NCBI GenBank assembly: GCA_000004985.1
Contig: GG738851.1
Length of the DNA stretch: 64,000 bases
From: Naegleria gruberi
Taxonomy: Eukaryota
Direction: 5' to 3' (one strand)
Part shown: in pieces, positions 20,056 to 63,062 of the stretch
Position numbering within the stretch: position 1 is the first letter of the stretch
Layout of the letters: the number at the start of each line of letters is the position of its first letter
Notes under the pieces: model-generated
Seen by the model: the letters and a program-made list of their open reading frames with translations, nothing else
What the model was told of the DNA's origin: nothing
The model's database searches: none
Position numbers and translations under genes: made by a program

Positions 20056-20764
20056 GTGGAAGAGAAATCAAAAGTTGCGAAACAGATATTTTCAGATGAT
20101 ATTTGTTTTGAAATAATTTCCATGCTTGATGATTCGTGGTTTATTTTAAATAATTGTTCTTTAATTTCAAAACAATTCTTTAATGTGATCAAGGAACGTT
20201 CAAAACTTGTTATTCAATTTAAAACAAAATTTACAAAGAAAAGAATTAAATTATTCATGAAAAGTCAATTTATGAATAGTATGGTTAATGTTAAATTTGC
20301 TTGACTCGAGAGAAAAAGCCAAATTCATCAGTGAAATGAAACAATTATCATCACTGAATGTTTATAACAATGAAATTGGTTGCGAAGGAGCCAAATATAT
20401 AAGTGAAATGCAACAATTAACATCAGTTGATATTTATTACAATGAAATTGGTGATGAAGGAGTCAAATATATCAGTGAAATGAAACAATTATCATCACTT
20501 AATGTTTATAACAATGAAATTGGTGATGAAGGAGTCAAATACATCAGTGAAATGAAACAATTAACATCACTTAATATTCCTGACAATCGAATTAGTGTTG
20601 AAGGAGTCAAATATATCAGTGAAATGAAACAATTAACATCACTTGATATTTCTTATAATGAAATTGGTGATGAAGGAGTCAAATATATCAGTGAAATGAA
20701 ACAATTATCATCACTTAATATTTCTTACAATGAAATTGAATTTTGGCAGGGGGGCGGAAAGTGA
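20056..20764 (+). CDS. F-box / leucine-rich-repeat (RI-type, 24-aa repeat) protein. The frame shifts by +1 near 20300 (possible pseudogene or assembly error). The 3' end is altered by a transposon insertion
   Basis: ORF 20056..20304 has an F-box-like segment DICFEIISMLDDSWFILNNCSLISKQFFNVI. ORF 20288..20764, in the next frame, has six tandem repeats xGVKYISEMKQLxSLNxxxNEIGDEG. No GT..AG intron reconciles the two frames. The terminal codons EFWQGGGK* run into the element at 20747. Confidence 0.5.
20311..20745 (+). repeat. Tandem 72-bp coding repeats (six LRR units) with high nucleotide identity
   Basis: Near-identical units ggtgatgaaggagtcaaatatatcagtgaaatgaaacaatta... recur every 72 nt. Confidence 0.6.
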
Positions 20765-37090: not shown

Positions 37091-39133
37091 TTAGAATTGG
37101 AAGCGATTGAAGAGGAAACTTCTATAGTTAAAGCTTCTTGCTTCTTCTTCAGAATCGCCAGAATCATCAGAATCTTCGCTGACAGTGTGTGACTTTTGGT
37201 CAATAATAATGTCAACTGGGATGGTTGATTCTTCGCTAGTCATTCCCTCAAAGATTTTCTTCATTTCATCAGTAACAATACCGTGTTCTTCCAACAAAGA
37301 TTTGGCATCATCGTAATCACCTTCAGCTTGGATTTCCAAAACAGTTTCCAACAACTTGGTCATGGCACTTTCGAATTCGTTAGTATTAACAGCAAAAACA
37401 GTCTTTGAGCTTTCTTGGGAAACAGTGATAGCACCCTTAGCTCTCATATAGTTGAATGCAACAGCATTAGCCATAGCGTGAGCAGATTCACTGACACCAA
37501 ATCTAACACTTCTGAAAATACCAGCCAAGAATGTTGTGTAGAGGGCCTTCTTAGCAAGAACGTTAGCTGGAGCAGTAGCATCAACACTACTTAATCCGAA
37601 ATCAATAGTAGTGATATTGCTATCCATCATGTAAGACAACATCCACAATCCACCAATATCTGCCTTGAGTTCTTCAATTGGAGAGTAGTACTTGCCCAAA
37701 GCTTCACGCAAAGTCTTGCTTGTTTCAGCACCATTTTCAAAGACCTTTTGTGGACCCAAACCGTGCATCATTTCGTGGGCAAGAACTTGAGTGAAGAAGG
37801 CATTAAAGATGACAAAATTTTGTTGAGCTGATGAGATGACAAGCTTGGAAATTGGGAGGAGAATGTTATTGAACTTGGCCTTTTGAACATTCTTCAATAA
37901 AACTCTCTTAGATCCGTATTGTTCAATAATGCTTTCAGTGTTTGGCAAAGTATAAGCAACAGCCTTGATAGCACCATTGGCTTGACCACCAGCATAAATT
38001 TGATTGATAACTCTGATAGAATTGATAGCACCAACACTTCTGACTGGATATTTAGTGGTATCCATTGGCAAACCAGTTTCAATAGCTTGCAAGTTAGCCA
38101 AAACAACATTGATGAATTTGGTAGAATCAGAATCCTTATATCCAATGTAAGCTTCAAAAGCAGCCTTCAACCCCATCAATTCATCATCATAGGTTTCATA
38201 TGGGCCAATAGTAACTTCCAAAACAGAATTGCTATCAGTCATGTTCAACCAAGCAATATCGGAAAGTTCATAATTGTTTGAAGTGAAAGCATCAGCTCTG
38301 AGTTGAAGGAAGCTCTTCAAGTAAGAATCCTTTGGATTAGTCAAAAGATTGGCAGCAGCATGCAAGTACTTGACAGCCTTGGCCAACTTCTTTTCGTATT
38401 GAGTACTGTATTTAACAGGTGTCAATTTACCACTGCTTTCCTTAATGACAGTGTAAAAACTGGTTGCTTCAGCGTGAGCAGTAGAGTCCAATTCATTGAT
38501 CCATTCTTTGATTTCACTTTCAGTGACGTTTTCTGGATAGAAAGCAGCACCAGCAAGCTTCTTTTCTGGAACTTCGTGCTTTGGCTTTTCGGCAAGGAAA
38601 TCAAAAGGTTCCTTGACAAAGGATTCATCGTTACTGACTCTAACCCAAGGTCCGAAATTCAAATCAAACAAAGCCAAAGGCTTTCCATGACAGGCAGTTG
38701 GCAAAATTTCAGCTCTGAGGTGTGAATTTTCAGACCACATTTGATCTCTATAAATTTCTCCCATAACATCAGCAGCTTTCTTTAATTGAGTGATAACAGC
38801 ACTGTATTCTGTGGAAATTTGTGTATAAGATGTTGTTTGTTCCAATACGACAGTACTATACTTATTCAAGTGGTCTTGCACTTCTCCACATCCCAGTTCG
38901 GTTATAAACAAAACAGCAGCAAAAGCACAGAAACCTCCCAAAATTAACAAAATAATCAACAAGATGATGATAGCACCAATGTGATTTAAACACTTGAATT
39001 TAGAGAGAAATTTTTCACCAATAGTTTTTGTTGCTCTTACTGGATCTTCCAAATTTTCAAGGCTTGATGCTCTTGTTGTATCATTACCAGTTTCCTGGAG
39101 TTCAAAATCTTCTTCCTCCAATCGATGAGACAT
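37091..39133 (-). CDS. Type-II membrane-anchored HExxH zinc metallopeptidase (DPP III / M49-like)
   Basis: 680 aa. N-terminal signal-anchor IGAIIILLIILLILGGFCAFAAVLFI. Zinc motif VLAHEMMHGLG with a downstream EELKAD glutamate. Acidic Ser-rich tail. Family assignment is tentative. Confidence 0.5.
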   Translation of the reverse strand: MSHRLEEEDFELQETGNDTTRASSLENLEDPVRATKTIGEKFLSKFKCLNHIGAIIILLIILLILGGFCAFAAVLFITELGCGEVQDHLNKYSTVVLEQTTSYTQISTEYSAVITQLKKAADVMGEIYRDQMWSENSHLRAEILPTACHGKPLALFDLNFGPWVRVSNDESFVKEPFDFLAEKPKHEVPEKKLAGAAFYPENVTESEIKEWINELDSTAHAEATSFYTVIKESSGKLTPVKYSTQYEKKLAKAVKYLHAAANLLTNPKDSYLKSFLQLRADAFTSNNYELSDIAWLNMTDSNSVLEVTIGPYETYDDELMGLKAAFEAYIGYKDSDSTKFINVVLANLQAIETGLPMDTTKYPVRSVGAINSIRVINQIYAGGQANGAIKAVAYTLPNTESIIEQYGSKRVLLKNVQKAKFNNILLPISKLVISSAQQNFVIFNAFFTQVLAHEMMHGLGPQKVFENGAETSKTLREALGKYYSPIEELKADIGGLWMLSYMMDSNITTIDFGLSSVDATAPANVLAKKALYTTFLAGIFRSVRFGVSESAHAMANAVAFNYMRAKGAITVSQESSKTVFAVNTNEFESAMTKLLETVLEIQAEGDYDDAKSLLEEHGIVTDEMKKIFEGMTSEESTIPVDIIIDQKSHTVSEDSDDSGDSEEEARSFNYRSFLFNRFQF

Positions 39134-39777
39134 TTTCGCAGCAAATATTTTTCTCGGCTATTAGGAACACAAAGCTGATGATGATGAAAAATATTATTTG
39201 TATCGTTATCGCGCTCACGATGTATTTATATTTTTTTTTAAAGCAATTAAAAAATCATTTCAATTATTTATTAATTCTACCGATAATGCCAACAGCGGTT
39301 CGCTATTCTTGTCCATGTTGCCAAAATTATCTAGCCCTAGCAGAGCTTCGTAAACGTTGATTTTCTGCTGCTGCATATTGGTACTGACCATGCTGGTTAG
39401 AGATAATGGAATGAGCATCCAATTGCTAATAATAATTCATGGCGTAATCTGTGAAATAATTATAGAGAAGGCACTGTTGGATGGATAGCACATTAGAGTG
39501 ATGATTGATACTTGGTGAGGTTTTATTTTGGATATTGAGGAGAATTTGAACGATTTTCGAAACTGAAAAACAAATGTTTGTTTAAAAGGTTTATTTTTGG
39601 AAAAAAAGATTAAATTGACTGGATTGAACCATTATTGATCATTTATTAATGTTATCTACAGTAAAGATTCTAATATTAAGAATGAAAATAATTGAGTATT
39701 TAAATTATTAAGCCAATTTTTCAATATTTTCTTAATTTTCTCAATTTTCATTTAAATTTTTAAATTTTAAAAAAAAT

Positions 39778-41547
39778 ATGAACAGCTCCTCCATTATTAC
39801 ATCCTTTGATAATTTATTTCCTCTCGATCAGAGAGCGGAAGTCAAGCAAAAATTGGCTTACGGAACAGCCGGATTTAGAATGAAGGCAGATTCTATTCTT
39901 GATAGAGTTGTTTTCACTGTCGGATTGTTGGCTTGTTTGAGAGCATTGGATAAGAAGGAATCTGTTGGTGTGATGATTACTGCTAGTCACAATGGAGCAC
40001 AAGATAATGGTGTAAAATTGGTAGATCCTACAGGTGAAATGTTAGAATCTACTTGGGAAGAAAAAGCTGTTCGTTTGGCTAATTGTATTCATGACGCCAA
40101 GTTGATGAGCGAAAAATTTGATGAATTGGTTTCGGAATTGAAATTGGATTTAACTAAACCAATCGGAAAGACTTTGTGCATTTCTGTTGCAAAGGATACT
40201 AGAACTAGTAGTGATAGATTGGTTTCAAGCTTGAAAACAGCTGTTTCTCTCTTTGAAAATTTAGGAATTGTTCACGTGGATTATGGACTCATGATTACTC
40301 CACAACTTCACTATATGGTCATGTTGACTAATCATCATGAGGAAACTAAATCATTCCTTGTCAATACTCAATTCTCATCACCACAAGAAAGACAACAAGT
40401 AGTTCAAGAAACTCTTGTTAAGAATGAAAGTATTTATTATCAAGATATTTCCAATGCTTTCAATTTATTATACAGAGGAGGTGAAAAGGAAATTACTATG
40501 GATTGTGCATTTGGAGTTGGAGGAAAGAAAATCAAACAATTACAATCAAGTTTAAAGGATGTTAAATTTACTCTTGTCAATGATTATGAAACTGTAGGAG
40601 TTGAGGAATCACAAAAATATCTTAATCATGATTGTGGTGCTGAACATGTTCAAAAGCAAAAGGCTGTTCCAATCAATTGTGAAAATTTCAAGAGTGTTGC
40701 CAGTATTGATGGAGATGGTGACAGACTTGTTTATTTCTTTAGAGATGAACAAAATGAATTGGTCTTGTTGGATGGTGATAAGATTGCCACTCTCTTGGTT
40801 AAATTTATTGGTGAATTGTTGACCAAGACTGGACTTTTGGATCAATTAATTGTTGGTGTTGTTCAAACAGCATATGCTAATGGTTCAAGCACAACCTATT
40901 TGAAGCAAATTCTTGGAGAACAACGTATTTTCTGTGTTCCAACTGGTGTCAAATACCTCCATCATAAGGCTAAAGAACTCGATGTTGGTATTTATTTTGA
41001 AGCTAATGGACATGGTACTGTTATTTTCTCAGAAAAGGCCAATAAGGCAATTAATGAAATGTACAATAGAAGCACCACACAAGGAGGTGAAAGTAGTGAA
41101 TTTGTTCAAGCCATCTCTGACTTGTTTGCCCTCACCAAGTTGATTAATCCAACAGTTGGTGATGCTTTCAGTGATTTACTCGTTGTTGAAGTTGTTTTGG
41201 GTTATTACGGCTGGAGTTATGTAGATTGGGATAAGAATCTCTATACTGATGTTCCAAGTGTTCAAGACAAGTTAAAGGTCAAGGACAGAACTATTATTAA
41301 GGTTTCAGCAGACGAAACTCAAGTTGTTTCTCCAGAAGGTATTCAAAACAAGATCAATGAATGTGTTTTAAAGGTCAATAAGGGTCGTGCTTTTATTCGT
41401 CCAAGTGGTACTGAGGACGTTGTGAGAGTTTATGCTGAAGCAGAAACCAAGGAAGAAGCCAAAGAATTGGCAATTGACGTATTACACATAATCTACAATG
41501 ATTTGAATGGAACAGAACAACCACCAGCCAAATCATCAAAACTCTAA
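39778..41547 (+). CDS. PGM3/AGM1-like: Phosphoacetylglucosamine mutase (AGM1/PGM3, alpha-D-phosphohexomutase family)
   Basis: 589-aa single exon. N-terminal YGTAGFRMKA. Active-site Ser loop GVMITASHNGAQDNGVKLVDPTGEML. Metal-binding DGDGDR. Sugar-binding GVVQTAYANG ... EANGHGT. Confidence 0.85.
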   Translation: MNSSSIITSFDNLFPLDQRAEVKQKLAYGTAGFRMKADSILDRVVFTVGLLACLRALDKKESVGVMITASHNGAQDNGVKLVDPTGEMLESTWEEKAVRLANCIHDAKLMSEKFDELVSELKLDLTKPIGKTLCISVAKDTRTSSDRLVSSLKTAVSLFENLGIVHVDYGLMITPQLHYMVMLTNHHEETKSFLVNTQFSSPQERQQVVQETLVKNESIYYQDISNAFNLLYRGGEKEITMDCAFGVGGKKIKQLQSSLKDVKFTLVNDYETVGVEESQKYLNHDCGAEHVQKQKAVPINCENFKSVASIDGDGDRLVYFFRDEQNELVLLDGDKIATLLVKFIGELLTKTGLLDQLIVGVVQTAYANGSSTTYLKQILGEQRIFCVPTGVKYLHHKAKELDVGIYFEANGHGTVIFSEKANKAINEMYNRSTTQGGESSEFVQAISDLFALTKLINPTVGDAFSDLLVVEVVLGYYGWSYVDWDKNLYTDVPSVQDKLKVKDRTIIKVSADETQVVSPEGIQNKINECVLKVNKGRAFIRPSGTEDVVRVYAEAETKEEAKELAIDVLHIIYNDLNGTEQPPAKSSKL

Positions 41548-45544: not shown

Positions 45545-45617
45545 GCCCGTCTAGCTCAGTCGGTAGAGCGCAAGGCTCTTAACCTTGTGGTCGTGGGTTC
45601 GACCCCCACGGTGGGCG
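45545..45617 (+). tRNA. tRNA-Lys(CTT): tRNA-Lys (anticodon CTT)
   Basis: GCCCGTC TA GCTC AGTCGGTA GAGC G CAAGG CTCTTAA CCTTG TGGTC GTGGG TTCGACC CCCAC GGTGGGC G. A T-rich tract TTTCCTTTTG follows. Confidence 0.9.
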
Positions 45618-49654: not shown

Positions 49655-49728
49655 GCCTTCCTAGCTCAGTTGGCAGTAGCGCTGTCCTAGTAAGACAGAG
49701 GTCTTGGGTTCGATTCCCAAGGGAGGCA
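49655..49728 (+). tRNA. tRNA-Thr(AGT): tRNA-Thr (anticodon AGT)
   Basis: Acceptor GCCTTCC/GGGAGGC. Anticodon stem CTGTC/GACAG with loop CTAGTAA. T-arm TTGGG TTCGATT CCCAA. Discriminator A. The D-stem is 3 bp plus one mismatch. TTTT lies downstream. Confidence 0.85.
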
Positions 49729-50997: not shown

Positions 50998-51795
50998 CTA
51001 ATGACAACTCTTTCCATGTTTTTTCAATTGATAATAATTGTAAGGGAGAGGAACCAAATAACCCATCGAAAGACTAGCAGCAAGTGAAACCCAAAATGCA
51101 GGTTCATTCACTTGAAGCATGGAAGTACATCCAGTGTCATTATCATTATTCAATAACCCCCAATAGGTCATCATTCCATAATCTGTTATATTTTCACTCA
51201 ATTCCATTGTTAACATGGAGAAGAAACTCATCTTGCAAGCCATTCTGAAAGCTTCTACAGTGGTATCGAATTTCTCTCTATATCTCAGGAGAGCAGTTTC
51301 CAATGCTAAACTTGTGGCTATACCAGAAGCCATACATATTGGCATAATCATGGCCATGCCTAGCTCTGGATATTGACTTGTCAGAAACCACATCATTGAA
51401 AAATCACCAATTGAGCATCCAATTAAACAGTTCAGTGTATTAAGAGAGGCTCTCTTCCATGAATGTTTACATTTCCAAAATTTCAAATCCCAAACTGATA
51501 ATTTACTCTTTTCCAAAGGTGCGTTATTTTTCATTGGCGGAGTATTAATATTTTGATTATGAGTCTCGCTTGATGATGTATTCATTGTATTGCAATGATC
51601 AGAATGATCACTTGTTGATTCCGATTTTAATTTGTGTTTTCCTCCGCAGCATGATGAAACCAATCGGACTTGTTGTTGATGATTTATCAATAATCCAAAA
51701 CCATTCAATGATGATACTACATGTTGTCTCCTTCCCAATAACACAGAACCAACAGTTGCTGCTGCTGAGCGGGTAGTACAGATTCTTTTAAGCAT
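50998..51795 (-). CDS. Mitochondrial-presequence membrane protein with a CxxGCxxGD motif (DUF4396-like)
   Basis: N-terminal MLKRICTTRSAAATVGSVLLGRRQ. Motif LNCLIGCSIGDFSMMWFL followed by hydrophobic helices. Confidence 0.45.
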   Translation of the reverse strand: MLKRICTTRSAAATVGSVLLGRRQHVVSSLNGFGLLINHQQQVRLVSSCCGGKHKLKSESTSDHSDHCNTMNTSSSETHNQNINTPPMKNNAPLEKSKLSVWDLKFWKCKHSWKRASLNTLNCLIGCSIGDFSMMWFLTSQYPELGMAMIMPICMASGIATSLALETALLRYREKFDTTVEAFRMACKMSFFSMLTMELSENITDYGMMTYWGLLNNDNDTGCTSMLQVNEPAFWVSLAASLSMGYLVPLPYNYYQLKKHGKSCH

Positions 51796-51912: not shown

Positions 51913-52923
51913 TTAGAAAACAACTAGGTTGTTGTGGATTTGATAGGTTTCAGCGAGAATGTATGTGAATTTGGAAGTATCGGTCAAGTTGACAGCATGA
52001 ACATACATTGTACATGTTCTGGTGTGTGTTGATACACATTGGTATTGGATGTATCGAATGACCTCTTCTTTAGTGTTTTGACCAGTGTATTCCTTGAAAT
52101 AATCACTAAATGGATGGTGTTCCAGTAATTGAGCCAGTTCATCAGTTTTTGTAAGGAAAATTACAAAGCTGGAAAATAGTTCAGACTTTTTTAGGTTTTC
52201 AAATGTATCAATGGCCAACTGGAGACAATTTGTATTGTGTACCGTATCATGTAACACATAATCAGCCAATGAAATGAAATAATAGACCACGTCCACATTT
52301 TCAAATTGAGTAATCCATTTTCTTGGCTCTCCTCTCATATCACTGGGGTCAATAAATCTGAAATTAAAACCTCCCTTGATATCAATCTCTTTGATGGATG
52401 AGGAGGTTCTTGGAATTTTCACTCGATACATGTCGTTTAATTCAAATTTCATCTGAGAATTATTTTCCAATTTTGCAATAAACTCCTCACTGAAGAAATA
52501 CTTAATATTATTCAAATATCTCATATGAAAAGATGCTTCCAATAAAAATTCATTCTCTCCTTCTCTGACATATCTTATAAATTTAATCAGATCATTAGAA
52601 ATTGTCCTCAATCGAATATCTTTTCGTATAGTTTCTTTCAGCTTTTCGAATTGATTTGGTAACCGATTCTTTAACAATTCATAACAAACCAAAATACATC
52701 TAAACACAAATTCCATCACCCACCTATCCAATTTCACTCCTATCGACAGCAACCATTCAATATCATTATTGACACGCAGAAAATTGCAAAAAGTTGATTT
52801 TCCAGAATTTGTTCCTCCAAGAATGAGAAATCTCTTGCTGATTTGATTTTTGGAAAATTCATCGTGTATGATTAGCTGTTCCGAGATTTGTTTATCTTTT
52901 TGTCTTTCTTTTCGTCTGGCCAT
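51913..52923 (-). CDS. Divergent heterotrimeric G-protein alpha-subunit-like protein lacking the switch-II catalytic Gly-Gln
   Basis: 336 aa. P-loop LILGGTNSGKST. Switch-I Arg retained (YRVKIPRTSS). The G3 motif DVGGQ is replaced by DPSDM in FRFIDPSDMRGEPRKW. G4 is TKTD (canonical NKxD). G5 is HAVNLTDTS (canonical TCATDT). Confidence 0.65.
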   Translation of the reverse strand: MARRKERQKDKQISEQLIIHDEFSKNQISKRFLILGGTNSGKSTFCNFLRVNNDIEWLLSIGVKLDRWVMEFVFRCILVCYELLKNRLPNQFEKLKETIRKDIRLRTISNDLIKFIRYVREGENEFLLEASFHMRYLNNIKYFFSEEFIAKLENNSQMKFELNDMYRVKIPRTSSSIKEIDIKGGFNFRFIDPSDMRGEPRKWITQFENVDVVYYFISLADYVLHDTVHNTNCLQLAIDTFENLKKSELFSSFVIFLTKTDELAQLLEHHPFSDYFKEYTGQNTKEEVIRYIQYQCVSTHTRTCTMYVHAVNLTDTSKFTYILAETYQIHNNLVVF

Positions 52924-53036: not shown

Positions 53037-56000
53037 TTACTCCATTTTAATTTCACAAACTACAATATCTTGTTTATGTGAAGATAATCTGATGGTAGAC
53101 ATTTGACGTTGCTCATTTGGTCTCATGTAGTTCAAGAAAAAGGTACACAGTACACTAGTGCCACCTGTCAAGTTTTGAGAATGATTTGAAAAGTAGTTTG
53201 TGGTTGCCTTGTAAATTCCTGCTGGTGCAACCTTAATCATGTATTCCTCAGGTCCGTAACCATTTCTGAAATCTCTACTGACTGTAATTGATTATTAGTA
53301 CAATGAATATTATAATACTTACCATAACCTCCGATAGCTGTTCTATTGTGGGCATAATATGCGTGCTCTCCTCCTTTATCAGCAGGTTCTTGAACATGCA
53401 AGTCCTTAATGATGTTTAAATTAATAAATTTTAGTATTGACCAATGCCAGTAAAAAAATACTTACAATATCTACTTGGTCAGTGTCCCATGCCATGCTTA
53501 TTCTAATATCTAAATCAAAGTGATGAATGAAACGTGGGTCAATAATTGGTAAATCAGGTTGTTTGAGTAAGAGATGGTTCATCTCAGTGGCAGCTGTCAT
53601 TTCAATTTCATCAAAACGCATGTCCCATTTTCCAGTAATGACCTTATTGAATAATTGCATAGACTCTTCATATTTTCCTAATCTTTCCTTCACCAGAGCC
53701 AAATCTCTATAAGATTGAGGTTCGTGAGGTGCAATCTTTTTCACTTTTTCGAATAGCCACTCAGATAATTCTAATGCATCGGCTTGATCCAATCTGTAGG
53801 CAACAATACGATACAATTGAATATTTTCCAATTCCAATTCACAAATATTTGATAGAATTCTCACACCCAATTTGAAATCCTTGACACTTGAAAGGAAATA
53901 ATCAGCAACATCGAGATAGAAAGCTGGGGAGTCTTTGTAACTCTTTCTTTGTTTCAAATATTCCTTATATGGGTTGGAGGATTTGGCAATTTCTTTACAA
54001 TAGCTGGCGTCAGGACTCCATGCCTTGATTGAGATTGATCCAGAGGCACTTTCAGATGTGCTCTTAGCCTCTGACTTCTTTTCCTTCTTGTCCTTCTTTC
54101 TGTCTTCTCCACCACCTCCACTTGAACTCTCAGATCTTCGCTTGCTGAGGCTGAGTCCTAATGAAATACCACCCTTCTTTTTGGATTTCTTACCACATGA
54201 TCGAAACTCAGCAGCTTCTTCTCTGAGACACAAGTCATCGGATTCTAAGCGTTCAAATTGAGGAGCACTACCAGCAAACTCTTCCTCACATTCATCTTTA
54301 CACAAGTCCTGTTTTTGTGATGCATTTCTTGGAGTAAAATCACGATTGTGCCAATTAACTCTTTCTTTCCACATGGAAAGAATTCTTTCAATTTTATCCT
54401 TTTCTCTTTTTTCCTCAGACTCTTTTTCATTCTTCTTCATTTCAGAATATTGCTTGTAAACATTTGCAAGAGTTTGCGGAGGTACAATGTCATGTTTCAA
54501 GTATTGATCCAAAGTTTCCAAAACGAGTAAGGTAGAATCTTCAGTGACAATTCTAAAATCTTGTCCAATCTTTTTAATTTCATCCTTGAAAAGATGAGGG
54601 AAAGCTGAGAGAGAATCAATCTTTTGTTGAGCCCATAGTAATGGCAAAACAGCAGCTTCACATTGTTCCAAATTGACTGGCAATTCCAATTCTTGAACGT
54701 GATAAATAGAGGAACCGAATCTGAAAGAAACTGCTATCTTTACACTTTCCTTTCCACTATTCTTGAATTTACCAAACAGTTTGAAAACTTCTCCTTCTTT
54801 GAGACTAACTGGTTCATTTGGATACACCTCTTCCAGATCAGAATCTTCAAAATCAGCAACAGCAAATGAGAGAACTGGTTTTCCAATTGACTTGACTAAG
54901 TCAACCTCAGTTAATTCATTGGAATTCAAATAAACACCTCCGCTCTTTGTAGCAATATGTTTAAGAAGAGGTGAATTGACAATATTTCCGCAAGTGACAA
55001 AATAAATTGGTTTCTCAAAGTTTGCCAATGGACTAATCTCATGTCCAAATGTATGAACACCATCAGTAAAGGCAATACAATAATCAACTGACTTGTTAAG
55101 CAAATCCTTATCAAATAGTAACATGTTGGAACCACCATCATAATATAGTTCATCTTTGACAAATTTCAAAACTTCTGCAACAGATGTAAAATCCACAGAT
55201 TGAATAACATCAGCACTGAAAGCAGATAATGAAATTGAAGTTGGAGCAATACCTTCAAGGATCACCTTCAAGGTCTTCAAGTTCTTTTCATGTAGTGACT
55301 GGTTACTATTGGAACAATCCCAAACAATTTGAATTTTGCTTCCAATTCTACTCATTTCTCTCAATTCTGTAGATAATTGAGGAACTGGAATAGATGTCAT
55401 GAAATAGCCATTTTCAGAAGCTAATAAAATATCCCTAACATCTTCTGATTGTTTTGTAACAGCCAATTTAAATCCGGTCATATTTTCATTGAGTTCTGAC
55501 TTTTTCAATTCGAAATATCCTGTTCTTGAGCTGGCATTCTTACTTGTCCACAACAGTTTATCTTCAACTGATTGGGTTTCAGCATTGGCAACACCCATCA
55601 ACACTTCAGTTTCAAATCCTTGTAATGAAGTTTGATTGAGTGTAAATTCAATCTTGGTATCATCTCTCAATGCACCAAAATTCAAGTATGACATTGGAAC
55701 CCAAGCACTTCCTCTAATCTTTCCCTTTTGTGAATCATTACTCTTTTCAATAATTTCATTCAACATCATTTGATATTTGACTTGAATAGTCTTATCCTTA
55801 TTATAAGGCAATGGATAAACACGAGTTTTGAATGAATTGGATTGAGAAACCTTCTCAACCATTGACACCTTATTTCCAGCTCTAACTTCAGCTTCAAAAA
55901 CTTCCTTTGCCTTTTCTTTTGGAACTGGGACAGCATCAATCAATTGACCATCAACTTCCATTGCATAACCTATCAAAGTAGCACCATCAGGCATTGGTAA

Positions 56001-56333
56001 CAACAATTCTCCTTCAATAGTTTTCTGATTTTGATTACAAAATGTCATGGTAGAAACCACCTGAACAATCGGATAGGTCACATGACATTGCACCCGATGT
56101 GAAACTAATGGCAATAACGTTGATGCTTTATCAGAATATTCTCCTGTTGCCAATTTCACGCTGGTAAATTGATCAAGATCCAGAAAGTGCAAACTCTTTG
56201 GAATGCTTCCAATCAGAGAGGCAGAATTTTTCGGATCCACGACAACTTTTTTATCATTGCTTGGAGTTGATTCGAGTTGTGAAAGTTCATCATCAACGGC
56301 TTTATTCTTGCTTCCGAAAAATTTGCCAAACAT
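53037..56333 (-). CDS. VIT + von Willebrand A domain protein with a TPR-like region, three exons
   Basis: Exon 1 is 53466..56333. It has a VIT-like N-terminus (...RVYPLPYNKDKTIQVKYQMM) and a vWA domain (IQIVWDCSNSNQS ... AFTDGVHTFG). Intron 53405..53465 (GTAAGT..TTAAG, 61 nt, phase 0). Exon 2 is 53323..53404. Intron 53282..53322 (GTAAGT..TACAG, 41 nt, phase 1). Exon 3 is 53037..53281. Splicing joins the main ORF to track ORF 53037..53240 (...DLHVQEPADKGGEHAYYAHNRTAIGGYG|VSRDFRNGYGPEEYMIKVAPAGIYK...). Confidence 0.6.
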
Positions 56334-59165: not shown

Positions 59166-62100
59166 TTACATCACAATGAAGGCACTCAAGAACACAACAA
59201 GCATCAATAATAGTTGTGATGAATGACTTTTCATACCAGTTGTGACATTCAATCTGACTGAACGAGCGGCTACTCCACTAACATGTCCATTAATATTCTT
59301 TGATGTTGAAGGAGTTGTAACAAATTCACAATTTGATCCAAATGCATTCTTCAAAGTACATTGACAAGTTTCAGGAGCAATACATTGACCTCTTGATGAA
59401 CAAACACTTGCATCAGTACTCTTAACTCCCTTACAATTGAATGATTCACAATTTGATCCATAGTATCCATTCTTGCAAGTACAATTATTTGGTTTGGAAC
59501 ATGTACCATTTCCAGAACAAACTGAATTATCTGAATATAATTGACCAAAACAATTGAACAATTGACAATTGTTTCCATAATATCCATTGTCACAGGAACA
59601 ATTATTTGGTTTGGAACAAGTACCGTGGGATGAACATACTGAGGATTGGTCACTTCCAATACCGTTACAATCAAACTTGCCACATGAAGCTCCATAATAT
59701 CCATTATCACATGAGCAATTATTTGGTTTTGGACAGGAACCATGTGAAGAACAAACAGATGAATTGGCACTGTTCACACCAAAACAATCAAACTTATCAC
59801 ATGCAGCTCCATAATATCCTTCCTTGCAAGTACAATTATTGAAATCCAAACATTGACCATTTCCTGAGCAGACACTTTGTGAATTCTTCAAAGTTCCAAA
59901 ACAATCGAATTCTTCACAATTAGCTCCATAATAACCAAGAGAGCATGTACAGTTATTATATGAAGAACAGATGCCATGACCAGAACAAACATTGGCTTGA
60001 GATTTGAGAATTGAATTACAAGTGAAATCTTCACACTTGCTTCCATTATAACCAGCAAAACATGAACATTGATCCAGTCCTAGGCAATAACCATGACCAG
60101 AACATCCCTTAGTTTCATCAGCAATACCAAAACATTCATTCACACAATAACTCTTGAAACTATTCAGTTTGCCTTTAACGCAATAAGGTGTTAACTTGTT
60201 AACAAATTTGGGTGTTGTGTAGAAAAATTCTCCTTTTCTATTTCTCATGACATAGGAGTAGTATAAATCTGGTACTGAATCCAATTTCAATTCTTCTAAT
60301 TTTCCTGTATACTTGTTTAGTTTGAGCAATGCTGAAAGGCCATAAAGAGTGATAATAATTTCACCCTCTGGTGTTTGAAGAATAGTTTGAACATCACGAA
60401 CTGATGTTTCATTGGCTGGTAAATTATATTCAGGATAACCTCTTGTGTAATTACCAACAATATTCGTAATAATTCCATTGGAAATTTTGAAAATTCTATT
60501 GTTGCCAATATCAGGAACCAACAAGACATCTTCTGACACAACACTGAAAGATTGGGCAGTGAATAGTGCTTGATTTGCAGGAATACCGCTTTCAATTCTA
60601 TTTCCAAGACCTGCAATGGTTGTAACAATTCCAGTTGACTTGGTGATTTTTCTAATTCTTGAAGAACCTTCCAAAATATAGAGATTTCCCTTCTCATCTG
60701 TGTCCATATAAACCACTTCTCCAAAATAGGCATTTTCAGCCTTTAAGCCATCTCCAAATCCACCTATTAATGTTGAAATGGTTGCATTCTCTTGATCAAC
60801 TGAAACATATTTGATATTGTTAATATTGGTTGGATCATCCACATTGGAGAAATACAAGTTTCTTCCCTTCATTAACATCAAGGTTGGGAAAATAGCAGCA
60901 TCAACAGCTCTCATTCCATCTCCAAAGAAACCATTAGTTCCATTACCAGCAAATAACACATTTTGACCTTGTGGAGTAATCTTTCTAACTTGGTAATTCC
61001 CAGTGGAAACATAAAAATCTCCAGTCAATGTATCAAATTCCAATCCCCCTACGTTATCAGTTGCTGATCCAGGAACAGAAGAAACTGTATTATTGTAAAG
61101 CTTTCTAATTCTTTGATTGTAGGGATCAGCAAAATAAATGGCATCCAATGAATTTTCTGAACGTACAACAAGAGCCAATGGATTGATATTTGCTTCAAGG
61201 GCAGGTATTTCCATATCAATGTTTTGCTCATAAATTTGTCCAGTACCAGCAATAATAGAAACTTGATTAGTGAGCTTGTCAATCTTCTTGATCAAATTCC
61301 AATCGGTCACATAGATGGCATCTCCAGAAGGTGATTCTGTCAAGAATATAGGTGAAACAACATCAATATTAGGTGGAACCTCGGATGATGGAATCCCATT
61401 TCCTGAAACTGTGGTGATTGTGCCATTAATTCCAAAAACCTTTCTAACTCTATTATTACCTAAATCGGCAATCCAAAGATCACCATTTGAATCAACAATA
61501 GCATGTGAAGGATTGTTCAATGTTGCTTCAGTTGCTAAACCACCATCTCCTGTAAATCCAACAGTGCCATTTCCTGCAATAATTACAACCATATTACTAT
61601 CTTTAGAAATCTTTCTAATAGTGTGATGTTTGTAATCAGCAATGTAAATTTCATCTTGATAGACAGATAAACCAACATATCTACCACCAAATATTGGATT
61701 CAGAGTATTGTTCAATAATGTATTAGTGCTTGTACTAATTTTTGCGTTTAACTTGGAAATTTCATTAAACTTTGCAATGGAACTTCTTCTAAATTCAGTG
61801 GATCCCTCAATTCCACCATAAAACACATCATTGCTCAATGACTTGTCAATTGCAATAGTTTTAATACGTTCGATAGCTCCAGGTAAGAAAACACTCTTCT
61901 CTAGACTATTGATCTTGTACATAAAGTTGGCATCAAGACTTCCAAAGTACATTTCATCGCTCTTTGAAAGAGTTGCAACTGTATCAACGACACTCAATTG
62001 TTTAGGATCCAGACCATCAATTGGAATTGGTACATTTTTTCCACTTCCAGCAATGGTTTGAATTGTGTTAGTTTGTGGACTGATTTTCTTAATGGAGTAA

Positions 62101-63062
62101 CTCAAACTGAATGTAATGGAATTGTCGCTGTAATCCATTACAATGGCAGTACCACCACTAACTTGAAAATCAGATACCAAAACTCCATCACTACCTGAAA
62201 TAGAACCAGACATGCCTGTAACCTCATTAGTTTCCAAATTATACTTGTAAAGAAAACTGTCAGATAACATGTAGAACTCATTATTGGAAACTTGCAAGAA
62301 ATCTTTAGCATAATAATAATCATTCTTTTTCATGTAAATGGTAGAATCAGAAATCAACCACAAACCAGACATTGTTCCAGTTCCATAAAGAACAATTCTT
62401 CCATCATTTGCCAAACTAAAAGCTGTCAACAGAAGTTGACATGAGAGAGCATTGCTACCATCATAACATGGATTTGTATAAAACAAACCACTGCTACTAC
62501 CAAACACTTGAGTTAAAGCAAGAGTTGTCATGTTAAATATGAATATTTTGTGTTGTTGTTGATAAGTTGTTGTTCTGATGGCAATATCTCCATTACCATT
62601 GATAGAACAACCACCTTCATTGCCATAGGATGAATCTGTTTTAGAAAAGAGTAGTGTTGTTGTGGCTGTTACATTGTCGAGTTTGTAGATGGCAATTTGT
62701 GGAAAAACAACACTGACAATGTACAGATTCTCAGAACTCTTATCATATAACAAACAGCTGACAGAGGTAGAGTGTGAATAAAACTTTTCAACTGTGCCAG
62801 TTTGTTTGGAAATTTTACGAATTGGTTGATAGTTATTGTATGTGAAAATATCACCAGCTGATGTAATGGTATAATGAGCATAACTAACAAGAGTGTTCAG
62901 AGCTGGGTAGCCAGAACCATCGTCATTACCACCTGCATAGACAGAAGTATTGTAAAAAGTTGGATAAACAACATTGTCTGGCAAGGTGGTTGCTTCTTGT
63001 TGCATGGATTGACCAGCAACAAGCAAGAACAAGAATAGACAAAACAATAACTTGTTTCTCAT
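59166..63062 (-). CDS. Large secreted/membrane protein: signal peptide, multiple NHL-type beta-propeller repeats, seven tenascin-type EGF repeats, C-terminal hydrophobic anchor
   Basis: 1298 aa. Signal MRNKLLFCLFLFLLVAGQS. Many NHL-like blades (YFADPYNQRIRKL, IADLGNNRVRKVF, DIGNNRIFKIS). EGF units CSGHGYCLGLDQCSCFAGYNGSKCEDF repeated seven times with a C-x-C-x5-G-x2-C pattern. C-terminus is LLLMLVVFLSAFIVM. The antisense track ORFs inside are artefacts. Confidence 0.7.
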   Translation of the reverse strand: MRNKLLFCLFLFLLVAGQSMQQEATTLPDNVVYPTFYNTSVYAGGNDDGSGYPALNTLVSYAHYTITSAGDIFTYNNYQPIRKISKQTGTVEKFYSHSTSVSCLLYDKSSENLYIVSVVFPQIAIYKLDNVTATTTLLFSKTDSSYGNEGGCSINGNGDIAIRTTTYQQQHKIFIFNMTTLALTQVFGSSSGLFYTNPCYDGSNALSCQLLLTAFSLANDGRIVLYGTGTMSGLWLISDSTIYMKKNDYYYAKDFLQVSNNEFYMLSDSFLYKYNLETNEVTGMSGSISGSDGVLVSDFQVSGGTAIVMDYSDNSITFSLSYSIKKISPQTNTIQTIAGSGKNVPIPIDGLDPKQLSVVDTVATLSKSDEMYFGSLDANFMYKINSLEKSVFLPGAIERIKTIAIDKSLSNDVFYGGIEGSTEFRRSSIAKFNEISKLNAKISTSTNTLLNNTLNPIFGGRYVGLSVYQDEIYIADYKHHTIRKISKDSNMVVIIAGNGTVGFTGDGGLATEATLNNPSHAIVDSNGDLWIADLGNNRVRKVFGINGTITTVSGNGIPSSEVPPNIDVVSPIFLTESPSGDAIYVTDWNLIKKIDKLTNQVSIIAGTGQIYEQNIDMEIPALEANINPLALVVRSENSLDAIYFADPYNQRIRKLYNNTVSSVPGSATDNVGGLEFDTLTGDFYVSTGNYQVRKITPQGQNVLFAGNGTNGFFGDGMRAVDAAIFPTLMLMKGRNLYFSNVDDPTNINNIKYVSVDQENATISTLIGGFGDGLKAENAYFGEVVYMDTDEKGNLYILEGSSRIRKITKSTGIVTTIAGLGNRIESGIPANQALFTAQSFSVVSEDVLLVPDIGNNRIFKISNGIITNIVGNYTRGYPEYNLPANETSVRDVQTILQTPEGEIIITLYGLSALLKLNKYTGKLEELKLDSVPDLYYSYVMRNRKGEFFYTTPKFVNKLTPYCVKGKLNSFKSYCVNECFGIADETKGCSGHGYCLGLDQCSCFAGYNGSKCEDFTCNSILKSQANVCSGHGICSSYNNCTCSLGYYGANCEEFDCFGTLKNSQSVCSGNGQCLDFNNCTCKEGYYGAACDKFDCFGVNSANSSVCSSHGSCPKPNNCSCDNGYYGASCGKFDCNGIGSDQSSVCSSHGTCSKPNNCSCDNGYYGNNCQLFNCFGQLYSDNSVCSGNGTCSKPNNCTCKNGYYGSNCESFNCKGVKSTDASVCSSRGQCIAPETCQCTLKNAFGSNCEFVTTPSTSKNINGHVSGVAARSVRLNVTTGMKSHSSQLLLMLVVFLSAFIVM

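What the first reader, a model, noticed from the sequence alone, without database searches (positions are those of the whole stretch)
51913..52923. G-alpha-like protein with the catalytic switch-II Gly-Gln replaced (DVGGQ to DPSDM)
The P-loop (GGTNSGKST), the switch-I Arg and a G5-like motif are retained. The G3 motif that carries the gamma-phosphate-sensing Gly and the catalytic Gln is DPSDM. G4 is TKTD, not NKxD. Such a protein would be predicted to bind nucleotide poorly or to be GTPase-dead. This would be a pseudo-G-alpha or a constitutively locked signalling component, and it is not a simple pseudogene because the ORF is intact (336 aa).
Basis: partly seen in the sequence, partly recalled or inferred. 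Interest (0 to 1): 0.55.

Follow-up and report, generated by a model that had tools for sequence, protein, structure and literature searches.

The report
Catalytically degenerate Naegleria G-alpha paralogue
This is an intact gene from the amoeba Naegleria gruberi for a G-protein alpha subunit that keeps the normal fold and phosphate-binding loop but has lost nearly every residue needed to sense and hydrolyse GTP, so it is probably a non-cycling 'pseudo-G-alpha', a kind of protein already noted in Naegleria and plants.

Summary
The ORF at 51913-52923 (minus strand, 336 aa) is real. It is N. gruberi NAEGRDRAFT_63704, annotated only as 'predicted protein'. It is a genuine full-length G-alpha: Pfam PF00503 at 121.8 bits, an AlphaFold model with pLDDT 91, and TM about 0.8 to Gi/Gt. 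Two sub-claims fail. The catalytic switch-I Arg is Lys (or Pro) in every alignment, not Arg, and the key G5 Ala is Leu. Further losses are Gly42 to Thr, Glu43 to Asn, Gly183 to Ser and Arg208 to Pro. The gene retains GxxxxGKST, the Mg/phosphate ligands, Lys/Asp of G4, and the Trp-containing half of switch II. Its nearest relatives are 28-38% identical (N. lovaniensis, a second N. gruberi gene, two environmental contigs). They share TKxD, Lys at the Arg-finger position and loss of the P-loop Glu, but all keep the Gln. The Gly-Gln loss was seen only in this gene, which has no positional orthologue. The frame is open (chance about 3e-11) and the gene shows no strong rate acceleration. The most likely reading is a GTPase-dead, RGS-insensitive, non-cycling G-alpha acting as a nucleotide-independent adaptor or decoy, analogous to plant XLG2. 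Degenerate G-alphas in Naegleria's roughly 44-member expansion are already reported, so interest is modest.

The parts
51913..52923 (-). Complete single-exon CDS of NAEGRDRAFT_63704 (336 aa plus stop at 51913-51915), a divergent G-protein alpha subunit
   Evidence: ORF list. 100% identical to the deposited N. gruberi protein. Pfam G-alpha PF00503, E=4.5e-35, 121.8 bits against a cutoff of 48.8, covering profile positions 3-329 of 333. AF2 pLDDT 91.0, pTM 0.86. Foldseek TM 0.70-0.84 to Gi/Gt/Gq chains.
52846..52920 (-). N-terminal helix (residues 2-26). It is polybasic (MARRKERQKDKQ) with no Gly2 and no Cys, so there is no myristoylation or palmitoylation site
   Evidence: DSSP on the AF2 model gives helix H2-26 with pLDDT 92-94. 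Sequence inspection and the column survey show Gly at position 2 in 74 homologues.
52792..52818 (-). G1 / P-loop GGTNSGKST (residues 36-44). GxxxxGKST is intact, but Gly42 is Thr38 and Glu43 is Asn39
   Evidence: Lys46 and Ser47 are kept. At the Gly42 column the homologues have G 77, A 17, S 10.
52444..52761 (-). All-helical domain (about residues 55-160), the insertion that distinguishes G-alpha from small GTPases
   Evidence: AF2 helices H55-87, H95-105, H110-122, H124-133, H140-143, H146-153 at pLDDT 90-97. The Pfam match is continuous across this region.
52396..52434 (-). Switch I DMYRVKIPRTSSS (residues 164-176). The Arg-finger position holds Lys169, there is a 1-2 residue insertion, Ser/Thr sits at the Mg-ligand position, and Ser sits at the RGS-contact Gly183 position
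   Evidence: phmmer to PDB and MAFFT. Among homologues Arg178 is R in about 117 and K in 14, and Gly183 is G in 121.
52336..52350 (-). G3 motif DPSDM (residues 192-196) in place of DVGGQ. Asp200 is kept, Gly203 is Asp195 and Gln204 is Met196
   Evidence: DNA gac ccc agt gat atg. Alignments. The motif is unique among the 150 homologues.
52297..52335 (-). Rest of switch II, RGEPRKWITQFEN (residues 197-209). Arg205, Glu207, Lys210, Trp211, Phe215 and Glu216 are kept, and Arg208 is Pro200
   Evidence: Column survey. The AF2 confidence dip (pLDDT 75-79) falls at residues 190-210.
52141..52152 (-). G4 motif TKTD (residues 258-261) in place of NKxD. Lys270 and Asp272 are kept
   Evidence: T is found at this position in 17/150 homologues and in all five subclade members.
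51976..51993 (-). G5 region VNLTDT (residues 311-316) in place of TCATDT. Cys325 is Asn, Ala326 is Leu, and Thr327-Asp are kept
   Evidence: Ala326 is A in about 122 homologues and L in 6.
51916..51978 (-). Alpha-5 helix and C-terminal tail (residues 316-336, ...HNNLVVF), of canonical length and ending in an aromatic residue
   Evidence: AF2 helix H316-330, with the tail at pLDDT 57 or lower.

Best explanation
NAEGRDRAFT_63704 is a lineage-specific, highly diverged paralogue from the large Naegleria G-alpha expansion.

It belongs to a small subclade found so far in Naegleria and in unassigned environmental contigs. In that subclade the GTPase machinery was already remodelled:
- Lys replaces the Arg finger in four of the five members (P0004 has Gln there).
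- The P-loop Glu is lost.
- G4 is T-K/H/Y-x-D instead of N-K-x-D.
- Ala326 of G5 is replaced: Leu in three members, Met in P0003 and Ile in P0004.
- Gly183 is lost.

This gene has gone further. It has lost the gamma-phosphate-sensing Gly and the catalytic Gln (DPSDM), the Ras-Gly12-equivalent P-loop Gly (now Thr), and switch-II Arg208 (now Pro).

Shown here: the G-alpha fold, the helical domain, the N-terminal helix, the P-loop GxxxxGKST, the Mg/phosphate ligands, G4 Lys/Asp and the Trp-containing C-terminal half of switch II are all preserved, and the reading frame has been kept open.

Inferred:
- The protein cannot hydrolyse GTP.
- It cannot undergo the canonical GTP-driven switch-II rearrangement.
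- It is not a substrate for RGS GAPs.
- It therefore does not cycle.
- It most likely works as a nucleotide-independent (empty or statically nucleotide-bound) adaptor. It would bind G-beta-gamma or another G-alpha partner through its conserved alpha-N helix and switch-II face, acting as a 'decoy' or scaffold G-alpha in the manner shown experimentally for plant XLG2.
- Lacking lipidation sites, it would reach membranes only through its polybasic N-terminus or through partners.

The confidence of 0.5 is for 'functional but GTPase-dead, non-cycling G-alpha'. The specific G-beta-gamma decoy mechanism is about 0.25.
For: Family and fold:
- Pfam G-alpha 121.8 bits, AF2 pLDDT 91, Foldseek TM about 0.8 to Gi/Gt heterotrimer chains.

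Residue correspondence:
- Searches agree on DPSDM = DVGGQ, K169 = R178, T38 = G42, N39 = E43, S = G183, P200 = R208, T258 = N269 and L313 = A326.

Known effects of the equivalent changes:
- Q204R and R178C abrogate hydrolysis, G42V drastically reduces hydrolysis, and A326S weakens nucleotide affinity (XLG2 preprint 10.1101/795088).
- G203A/A326S Gi-alpha-1 is deposited as a dominant negative (5tdh; the G203A heterotrimer is 1gg2; both appear).
- G183S prevents RGS interaction (PMC12505447).

Retention of binding-competent features:
- K46, S47, T48, D200, R205, K210, W211, F215, K270 and D272 are among the 19 of 27 most conserved G-alpha columns that the query keeps.

Subclade context:
- P0002-P0005 share the TKxD-type G4, loss of the P-loop Glu and loss of Ala326, and four of five members have Lys at the Arg-finger position. 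All four relatives keep Gln.

Maintenance of the gene:
- The open frame has a chance probability of about 3e-11, against 14-33 stops in the other frames. In-frame coding LLR is +0.09 against -0.43 and -0.54 off-frame.
- Unique substitutions number 46 (query), 46 (P0002) and 38 (P0003), and 5 of 6 Tajima tests are non-significant.

Precedent:
- XLG2 binds G-beta-gamma and RGS1 independently of nucleotide.
Against: - No expression, binding or activity data exist for this protein, and it appears in no searchable paper.
- No orthologue was found in N. lovaniensis, Willaertia or any database. Purifying selection on DPSDM itself therefore cannot be shown.
- The coding signal is weaker than in neighbouring genes (0.09 against 0.19-0.49 bits per codon).
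- One Tajima test suggests mild acceleration (55 vs 32, p=0.014).
- Unlike XLG2, the P-loop Lys is intact, so nucleotide binding may still matter.
- G-beta-gamma binding is inferred only from conserved residues.
- Subclade monophyly has only 33% NJ bootstrap support.
Confidence: 0.5

Rival explanations
1. Constitutively GTP-locked signalling subunit. The protein still binds GTP through its intact P-loop and G4 Lys/Asp, cannot hydrolyse it, and so sits permanently in an 'on' state, signalling to an effector without receptor input.
For: - Gln204 to Met, Arg178 to Lys and Gly42 to Thr correspond to classical GTPase-deficient positions. Q204R and R178C abrogate hydrolysis and G42V drastically reduces it.
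- GxxxxGKST, D200, K270 and D272 are kept.
- TKxD is a competent guanine-binding motif in dynamins and occurs in otherwise canonical G-alphas.
- Some Naegleria G-alphas are self-activating (PMC9283941).
Against: - The Gly203 position is Asp. The engineered G203A/A326S Gi-alpha-1 is deposited as a dominant negative (5tdh).
- From general knowledge, G203A and Gs G226A mutants bind GTP but cannot adopt the active switch-II conformation.
- By inference, an acidic side chain next to the gamma-phosphate should disfavour GTP.
- Ala326 to Leu should crowd the guanine pocket, since even A326S lowers affinity.
- Arg208 to Pro sits at the start of the switch-II helix.
Confidence: 0.15
2. Non-functional relic. 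This would be a recently dead or dying copy from the birth-and-death turnover of the roughly 44-member N. gruberi G-alpha family, whose frame happens still to be open.
For: - It is a singleton with no positional orthologue in the two genomes where both sides of the DUF4396 neighbour could be examined. The syntenic DUF4396 neighbourhood has no G-alpha within 10 kb in N. lovaniensis or Willaertia. In the SRR29240419 assembly only the upstream side could be checked, because the contig ends about 0.7 kb past DUF4396.
- N. fowleri has only 13 G-alphas against about 44 in N. gruberi, which implies rapid family turnover.
- The Gly203/Gln204, Gly42 and Arg208 losses are specific to this gene.
- The codon-usage signal is the weakest among the local genes.
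- One relative-rate test gives p=0.014.
Against: - The 336-codon frame is open at a chance probability of about 3e-11, with no frameshift against the G-alpha profile over positions 3-329.
- The AF2 model is confident at pLDDT 91, so the core packing signal is intact.
- Total unique changes equal those of its sisters (46/46/38), and 5 of 6 rate tests are non-significant.
- The binding-site residues that do not need catalysis are selectively kept.
Confidence: 0.2
3. Still an active GTPase using a non-canonical mechanism. Examples would be partner- or dimer-supplied catalytic residues, as in dynamin/GBP-type GTPases that have a hydrophobic residue after G3 and an N/TKxD G4.
For: - Dynamin-superfamily proteins lack the catalytic Gln, carry a hydrophobic residue there, and use N/TKxD (PMC5084822).
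- The whole subclade shares TKxD-type G4 motifs and keeps the P-loop.
Against: - Dynamins keep the DxxG glycine, and here it is Asp.
- The P-loop Gly42 equivalent is Thr.
- The subclade relatives that look most plausibly active keep Gly-Gln (DPSGQ, DTSGQ), so the query is the outlier.
Confidence: 0.07

Closest known systems
Canonical heterotrimeric G-protein alpha subunits (Pfam PF00503; e.g. human Gi-alpha-1, N. fowleri G-alpha-1 to -7)
   Same: - Same two-domain fold (Ras-like plus helical domain), N-terminal helix and alpha-5 C-terminus.
- Shares the P-loop GxxxxGKST, Asp200, Lys270/Asp272 and the switch-II Arg205, Glu207, Lys210, Trp211 and Phe215.
   Different: - Arg finger, Gly203, Gln204, Gly42, Glu43, Gly183, Arg208, Asn269 and Ala326 are all substituted.
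- There is no N-terminal lipidation motif.
- Kimura distance to Gi-alpha-1 is 2.17, against a median of 1.1 for the 150 homologues.
Plant extra-large G proteins (XLG1-3), especially Arabidopsis XLG2, the experimentally characterised 'decoy' G-alpha
   Same: - A G-alpha-fold protein lacking the Arg finger, the DVGG glycines, the catalytic Gln and the G5 Ala.
- For XLG2, nucleotide-independent binding to G-beta-gamma and RGS is demonstrated (10.1101/795088). That is the functional model proposed here.
   Different: - XLG2 has also lost P-loop Gly42 and Lys46, and it carries a long Cys-rich, NLS-containing N-terminal extension.
- The Naegleria protein keeps the P-loop Lys/Ser and is a bare 336-aa G-alpha.
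- The origins are independent (plants versus Heterolobosea).
Degenerate members of the Naegleria G-alpha expansion (Anantharaman et al. 2011, as summarised in PMC8584482)
   Same: Same organism and same family. The review states that N. gruberi has about 44 G-alphas and that some Naegleria G-alphas deviate in conserved catalytic motifs, suggesting reduced or lost nucleotide-dependent activity.
   Different: The primary paper could not be read, so I cannot tell whether this gene or its subclade was singled out there. None of its identifiers appears in searchable literature.
Engineered dominant-negative or GTPase-deficient G-alpha mutants (Gi-alpha-1 G203A/A326S, Q204L, R178C, G42V/R, G183S)
   Same: The natural sequence combines substitutions at exactly these positions.
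   Different: The residues are different (Asp, Met, Lys, Thr, Ser, Leu), they occur together, and they sit on a 20%-identical background. Single-mutant phenotypes are a guide, not a prediction.
PseudoGTPases (e.g. AAGAB, class i: no binding, no hydrolysis)
   Same: A GTPase fold with catalytic residues lost, presumed to act through protein-protein interaction (PMC12490416).
   Different: The class cannot be assigned. An intact P-loop and G4 Lys/Asp suggest nucleotide binding may persist, unlike class i.

Membership tests
G-protein alpha subunit (Pfam PF00503) | Profile HMM score above the curated gathering threshold over the full domain | tested here: met
   121.8 bits against a cutoff of 48.8, E=4.5e-35, profile positions 3-329 of 333.
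G-protein alpha subunit (Pfam PF00503) | Ras-like GTPase domain with an inserted all-helical domain, plus an N-terminal helix | tested here: met
   AF2 pLDDT 91, pTM 0.86, with the expected helices and strands. Foldseek TM 0.70-0.84 to Gi/Gt/Gq/G11 chains.
G-protein alpha subunit (Pfam PF00503) | G1 P-loop GxxxxGK[ST] | tested here: met
   GGTNSGKST at residues 36-44. The inner Gly42 and Glu43 are substituted (Thr, Asn).
G-protein alpha subunit (Pfam PF00503) | Switch-I catalytic Arg (Gi-alpha-1 Arg178) and Mg-ligand Thr181 | tested here: not met
   Arg178 aligns to Lys169, or to Pro171 under an alternative gap placement. Thr181 is Ser or Thr..
G-protein alpha subunit (Pfam PF00503) | G3 DxxGQ | tested here: not met
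   DPSDM. Asp is kept, Gly is Asp and Gln is Met.
G-protein alpha subunit (Pfam PF00503) | G4 NKxD | tested here: not met
   TKTD. Lys and Asp are kept and Asn is Thr. T is seen in 17/150 homologues.
G-protein alpha subunit (Pfam PF00503) | G5 [TS]-C-A-[TKL] | tested here: not met
   V-N-L-T, with Ala326 as Leu.
G-protein alpha subunit (Pfam PF00503) | Guanine-nucleotide binding, GTP hydrolysis, G-beta-gamma and receptor coupling | not testable with these tools
   This needs purified protein or a complex prediction. Only monomer prediction was available.
G-protein alpha subunit (Pfam PF00503) | N-terminal myristoylation/palmitoylation (Gly2/Cys3), typical but not universal | tested here: not met
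   The N-terminus is MARRKERQ..., with no Cys in the first 30 residues.
Plant XLG-type decoy G-alpha | Long N-terminal Cys-rich/NLS extension fused to a G-alpha-like domain | tested here: not met
   The protein is 336 aa and the G-alpha profile starts at residue 9. The XLG architecture is described.
Plant XLG-type decoy G-alpha | Loss of the Arg finger, DVGG, the catalytic Gln and the G5 Ala | tested here: met
   K169, DPSDM and L313, compared with the XLG2 substitutions listed.
Plant XLG-type decoy G-alpha | Loss of P-loop Lys46 with very weak nucleotide affinity; nucleotide-independent G-beta-gamma/RGS binding | tested here: not met
   Sequence part: Lys42 (equivalent to Lys46) is retained. 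The affinity and partner binding are not testable here. The result is functional analogy only, not membership.
PseudoGTPase (functional, catalytically dead GTPase-fold protein) | GTPase fold with catalytic residues substituted | tested here: met
PseudoGTPase (functional, catalytically dead GTPase-fold protein) | Retention under purifying selection / expression | tested here: inconclusive
   The frame is open (about 3e-11) and there is no overall acceleration. However, there is no orthologue for dN/dS, no expression data, and a weak codon-usage signal.

The most novel reading that the evidence does not exclude
The query and its relatives would form a previously undescribed subfamily of G-alpha-derived proteins, seen so far in Naegleria and in unassigned environmental contigs. 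The relatives are N. lovaniensis C9374_010133, N. gruberi NAEGRDRAFT_72962 and two environmental genes. On this reading the subfamily has abandoned the Arg-finger/Gln mechanism in steps (DPSGQ/DTSGQ, then DPSPQ, then DPNEQ, then DPSDM). That would give a natural series showing how a heterotrimeric G-alpha turns into a nucleotide-independent signalling adaptor, independently of plant XLGs. It may also be functionally tied to neighbouring EGF-repeat surface proteins.
Probability: 0.2. Interest if true: 0.55.

Novelty: new member of a known kind. Interest (0 to 1): 0.3.

Why it matters
If the protein is expressed and functional, it would be a second, independently evolved example (after plant XLGs) of a G-alpha that signals or scaffolds without a GTPase cycle. 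It would sit in an organism with one of the largest known G-alpha repertoires. Because it keeps an intact P-loop while losing the gamma-phosphate sensor, it could separate 'nucleotide binding' from 'nucleotide switching' more cleanly than XLG2 does. Its graded relatives would offer natural intermediates. If it is only a decaying paralogue, it simply illustrates birth-and-death turnover in the Naegleria G-alpha expansion.

Tried and rejected
- Word-indexed protein searches with the query and with the subclade profile returned essentially only the query itself. The tool missed known relatives, so I relied on the exhaustive HMMER search instead.
- An exact-sequence contig look-up of the query found nothing.
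- The primary paper on Naegleria G-alpha degeneracy (Anantharaman et al. 2011) is not held. I had to rely on a review's summary.
- Synteny with the locus of the best N. lovaniensis homologue was not found. Only the G-alpha itself and EGF or tandem-repeat matches aligned.
- I briefly read a second tandem G-alpha on environmental contig L002. This was an artefact of two records (L002 and L003) sharing one file, and I retracted it.
- I tested positional orthology through the DUF4396 neighbour. No G-alpha lies within 10 kb in N. lovaniensis or Willaertia. In the SRR29240419 assembly only the upstream side could be checked, because the contig ends about 0.7 kb past DUF4396.
- A metagenome contig scan with the subclade profile gave only generic G-alphas at 34% identity or less.
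- The NJ tree recovers the five-member subclade, but bootstrap support is only 0.33 at these saturated distances. The grouping therefore rests mainly on the E-value gap (1e-44 to 1e-23, against 1e-20 or weaker for the rest) and on shared derived motifs.
- Sequencing error as the cause of DPSDM is rejected. It needs at least 3 nucleotide changes in clean in-frame codons.
- A structured RNA or other feature overlapping the ORF is rejected. Rfam finds only two tRNAs elsewhere in 44.5-53.5 kb.
Its motif positions (G40-T48, R178, T181, D200-Q204, N269-D272, T324-T327) printed as expected, and the PDB alignments give the same correspondences independently.
Full report
**Observation**

The window is Naegleria gruberi DNA. 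The ORF at 51913..52923 on the minus strand (336 aa) is 100% identical to a deposited 'predicted protein', EFC48504.1 / XP_002681248.1 / UniProt D2V4F2 / NAEGRDRAFT_63704, on a 693,645-bp scaffold. It scores 121.8 bits against Pfam G-alpha PF00503 (cutoff 48.8), in one continuous match over profile positions 3-329 of 333. The gene is therefore a complete, single-exon G-alpha.

phmmer against all solved chains aligns FRFIDPSDMRGEPRKWI to FRMFDVGGQRDERRKWI of Gt/Gi/Go. Two MAFFT alignments (9 and 150 sequences) give the same columns. DPSDM (residues 192-196, window 52336-52350) is therefore the homologue of DVGGQ. The DNA reads gac ccc agt gat atg in clean codons. Gly-Gln to Asp-Met needs at least three base changes, so a simple sequencing error is excluded.

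**How unusual it is**

I compared the query with the 150 best homologues from an exhaustive HMMER search of 1.84 billion representative proteins, using Gi-alpha-1 numbering:

| Position | Kept in homologues | Query |
|---|---|---|
| Gly203 | 140/149 | Asp |
| Gln204 | 137/149 | Met |
| Arg178 | about 117 (Lys in 14) | Lys |
| Asn269 | 133/150 (Thr in 17) | Thr |
| Ala326 | about 122 | Leu |
| Arg208 | 141 | Pro |
| Gly183 | 121 | Ser |

DPSDM occurs once. Apart from two probable misalignments, only two other sequences lack both Gly203 and Gln204.

- The catalytic switch-I Arg is not retained. Arg178 aligns to Lys169. There is a 1-2 residue insertion in switch I, and if it is placed so that the conserved I-x-E of strand beta-2 aligns, Arg178 falls on Pro171 instead. 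No alignment puts an Arg there. R167 is the non-catalytic Arg176 equivalent, and R172 is not conserved among the closest relatives.
- G5 is only partly retained. Thr-Asp is kept, but the guanine-contacting Ala326 is Leu.
- TKTD is weak evidence for poor binding. T-K-x-D occurs in otherwise canonical G-alphas (P0039, P0109 and P0119, all with DVGGQ). N/TKxD is also the normal G4 consensus in the dynamin superfamily (PMC5084822).

**What is preserved**

Preserved residues are GxxxxGKST, a hydroxyl residue at the Mg-ligand position, Asp200, Arg205, Glu207, Lys210, Trp211, Phe215, Glu216, Lys270 and Asp272. The query keeps 19 of the 27 most conserved G-alpha columns, compared with 25-27 in ordinary homologues.

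An AlphaFold2 model built from an 87-sequence alignment is confident (pLDDT 91.0, pTM 0.86). It has a long N-terminal helix, a full helical domain and the alpha-5 helix, and its only dip is over residues 190-210, which is switch II. Foldseek gives TM 0.70-0.84 to Gi/Gt/Gq chains. The hits include the G203A and G203A/A326S dominant-negative heterotrimers.

**Relatives**

Four proteins stand out in the exhaustive search, with E-values of 1e-44 to 1e-23 and 28-38% identity. Everything else scores 1e-20 or weaker.

| Protein | Source | G1 (P-loop) | G3 | G4 |
|---|---|---|---|---|
| Query | N. gruberi NAEGRDRAFT_63704 | GGTNSGKST | DPSDM | TKTD |
| P0002 | N. lovaniensis C9374_010133 | GSANSGKKT | DPNEQ | TKSD |
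| P0003 | N. gruberi NAEGRDRAFT_72962 | GACSSGKST | DPSPQ | TKLD |
| P0004 | environmental | GSSGSGKTS | DTSGQ | THID |
| P0005 | environmental | on a separate 77-aa ORF | DPSGQ | TYVD |

All five have Thr at Asn269 and have lost the P-loop Glu, and none has Gly183. Four of the five have Lys at the Arg-finger position (P0004 has Gln). All five have lost Ala326: three have Leu, P0003 has Met and P0004 has Ile. All four relatives keep Gln204. Much of the remodelling is therefore shared across the group, while the Gly203/Gln204, Gly42 and Arg208 losses are specific to this gene.

NJ recovers the five as a group, but with only 33% bootstrap support. Their Kimura distance to Gi-alpha-1 is 2.1-2.6 (2.17 for the query), against a median of 1.1 for all homologues.

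**Orthology**

- The P0002 locus shares no neighbours with the window.
- I used the adjacent DUF4396 gene to find syntenic loci. The N. lovaniensis locus and an unnamed assembly (SRR29240419) carry Peptidase_M49, DRMBL, PGM, INTS8 and DUF4396. M49 and PGM match window 38.0-41.5 kb. DUF4396 is inverted in N. gruberi.
- No G-alpha lies within 10 kb of DUF4396 in N. lovaniensis or in Willaertia. The SRR29240419 contig ends about 0.7 kb past DUF4396, so only its upstream side could be checked, and no G-alpha was found there.
- No protein more than 38% identical exists in the 5.8-billion-protein collection, among the 1.84 billion representatives, or on JGI metagenome contigs.
- The gene is therefore a lineage-specific singleton. 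This fits the reported expansion to about 44 G-alphas in N. gruberi (PMC8584482) against 13 in N. fowleri (PMC9283941).

**Gene or relic?**

- The 336-codon frame has a chance probability of about 3e-11 of being open, and the five other frames carry 14-33 stops.
- In-frame codon usage is positive (+0.09 bits per codon against -0.43 and -0.54 off-frame), though weaker than in neighbouring genes (0.19-0.49).
- Unique substitutions are 46 for the query, 46 for P0002 and 38 for P0003. Only one of six Tajima relative-rate tests is nominally significant (55 vs 32, p=0.014, outgroup P0004).
- Together with the confident fold prediction, this favours a maintained gene. Without an orthologue or expression data, a young relic cannot be excluded.

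**Mechanism**

What the literature shows for the equivalent changes:

- Q204R and R178C abrogate hydrolysis, G42V drastically reduces it, and A326S lowers nucleotide affinity (10.1101/795088).
- G203A/A326S Gi-alpha-1 is deposited as a dominant negative (5tdh).
- G183S blocks RGS interaction (PMC12505447).

The natural sequence carries changes at all of these positions at once. I infer that the protein cannot hydrolyse GTP, cannot make the canonical gamma-phosphate-driven switch-II transition, and is RGS-insensitive, so it does not cycle.

It conserves the N-terminal helix and the Lys210/Trp211/Phe215/Glu216 half of switch II. The best-characterised degenerate G-alpha, plant XLG2, binds G-beta-gamma and RGS1 independently of nucleotide. 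On that basis the most likely role is a nucleotide-independent adaptor or decoy. Unlike XLG2, the P-loop Lys/Ser and G4 Lys/Asp are intact here and in most of the subclade, so static nucleotide binding may persist.

**Rivals**

- GTP-locked 'on' state (0.15).
- Non-functional relic (0.2).
- Non-canonical active GTPase (0.07).

**Comparison with known systems, and novelty**

The protein is a member of the G-alpha family by profile and fold, but it fails four of the five G-box definitions. It is a functional analogue of plant XLGs, not a member: it has no N-terminal extension, it retains the P-loop Lys, and it arose independently. The phenomenon itself is already recorded. The review cites Anantharaman et al. 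2011 for the deviation of catalytic motifs in some Naegleria G-alphas. That primary paper could not be read, and none of this gene's identifiers appears in searchable literature. I rate it a new member of a known kind, with interest of about 0.3.

Noticed in passing
window 59166-63062 (-); L002 4135-8082; L001 12990-13364: A 1298-aa protein in the window has a signal peptide, an NHL/teneurin-like region, five or more EGF repeats and a hydrophobic C-terminal tail. It has a 1315-aa homologue 2.3 kb downstream of the subclade G-alpha on environmental contig L002. EGF-repeat sequence also lies just downstream of the N. lovaniensis subclade G-alpha, next to a REJ-domain gene. This could be conserved linkage between this G-alpha subclade and EGF-repeat surface proteins. 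However, order and orientation differ, and EGF repeats match promiscuously.
   Followed up: partly
window 50998-51795 (-) and 38000-41540: There is a synteny block with N. lovaniensis and assembly SRR29240419. Peptidase_M49 and PGM lie at window 38.0-41.5 kb in the same orientation, but DUF4396 is inverted in N. gruberi and separated from them by about 9 kb. In the other genomes INTS8 abuts DUF4396. The G-alpha, VIT/vWA and NHL genes sit inside this rearranged segment.
   Followed up: yes
window 50998-51795 (-): Beyond Naegleria and Willaertia, the best hits of the DUF4396 protein are mostly bacterial or metagenomic (Bacteroidota, Cytophagales). Many are fused to an HMA domain or named 'copper chaperone CopZ'. 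The window ORF (265 aa) has an N-terminal extension absent from the deposited 195-aa model (P0153 covers 74% of the query). It may be an organelle-targeted or horizontally acquired metal-related membrane protein.
   Followed up: no
window 45545-45617 (+) and 49655-49728 (+): Two tRNA genes. The first is tRNA-Lys(CTT), and it explains the 74-88% tblastx matches to several places in the Willaertia locus. The second lies 19 bp from the end of the NHL-repeat gene, near the rearranged segment.
   Followed up: yes
window 53037-53420 (-), downstream of the long VIT/vWA ORF 53421-56333: The 970-aa VIT/vWA/TPR ORF ends in an odd hydrophobic tail. The sequence just past it contains a gtaagtat-type motif followed by another open stretch (53037-53240). 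This suggests a short intron and a further 3' exon rather than the ORF boundary listed.
   Followed up: no
L002 792-1804: The environmental subclade G-alpha P0005 is split. The P-loop part (77 aa, GMHGSGKTT) and the remaining 255-283 aa are in different frames that overlap near 953-1025. This indicates a short intron, a frameshift or an assembly error.
   Followed up: partly
window 20336-20737 (+); L001 17323-18150: Tandem repeats of about 72 nt (24 aa) in the window match a repeat-containing 388-aa gene near the N. lovaniensis G-alpha at 40-64% identity in many registers. This looks like a shared repeat-protein family rather than synteny.
   Followed up: no
homologue set (P0019, P0122, P0025, P0104, P0034, P0054, P0063, P0131, P0146): A recurrent minority of protist or environmental G-alpha homologues also lack Gln204 and/or Gly203 (e.g. 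DISRI, DAPSN, DVGGM, DVGGA, DVGGT, DVGGL), often together with a TKxD G4. Loss of the catalytic Gln in G-alphas seems to have happened many times independently.
   Followed up: no
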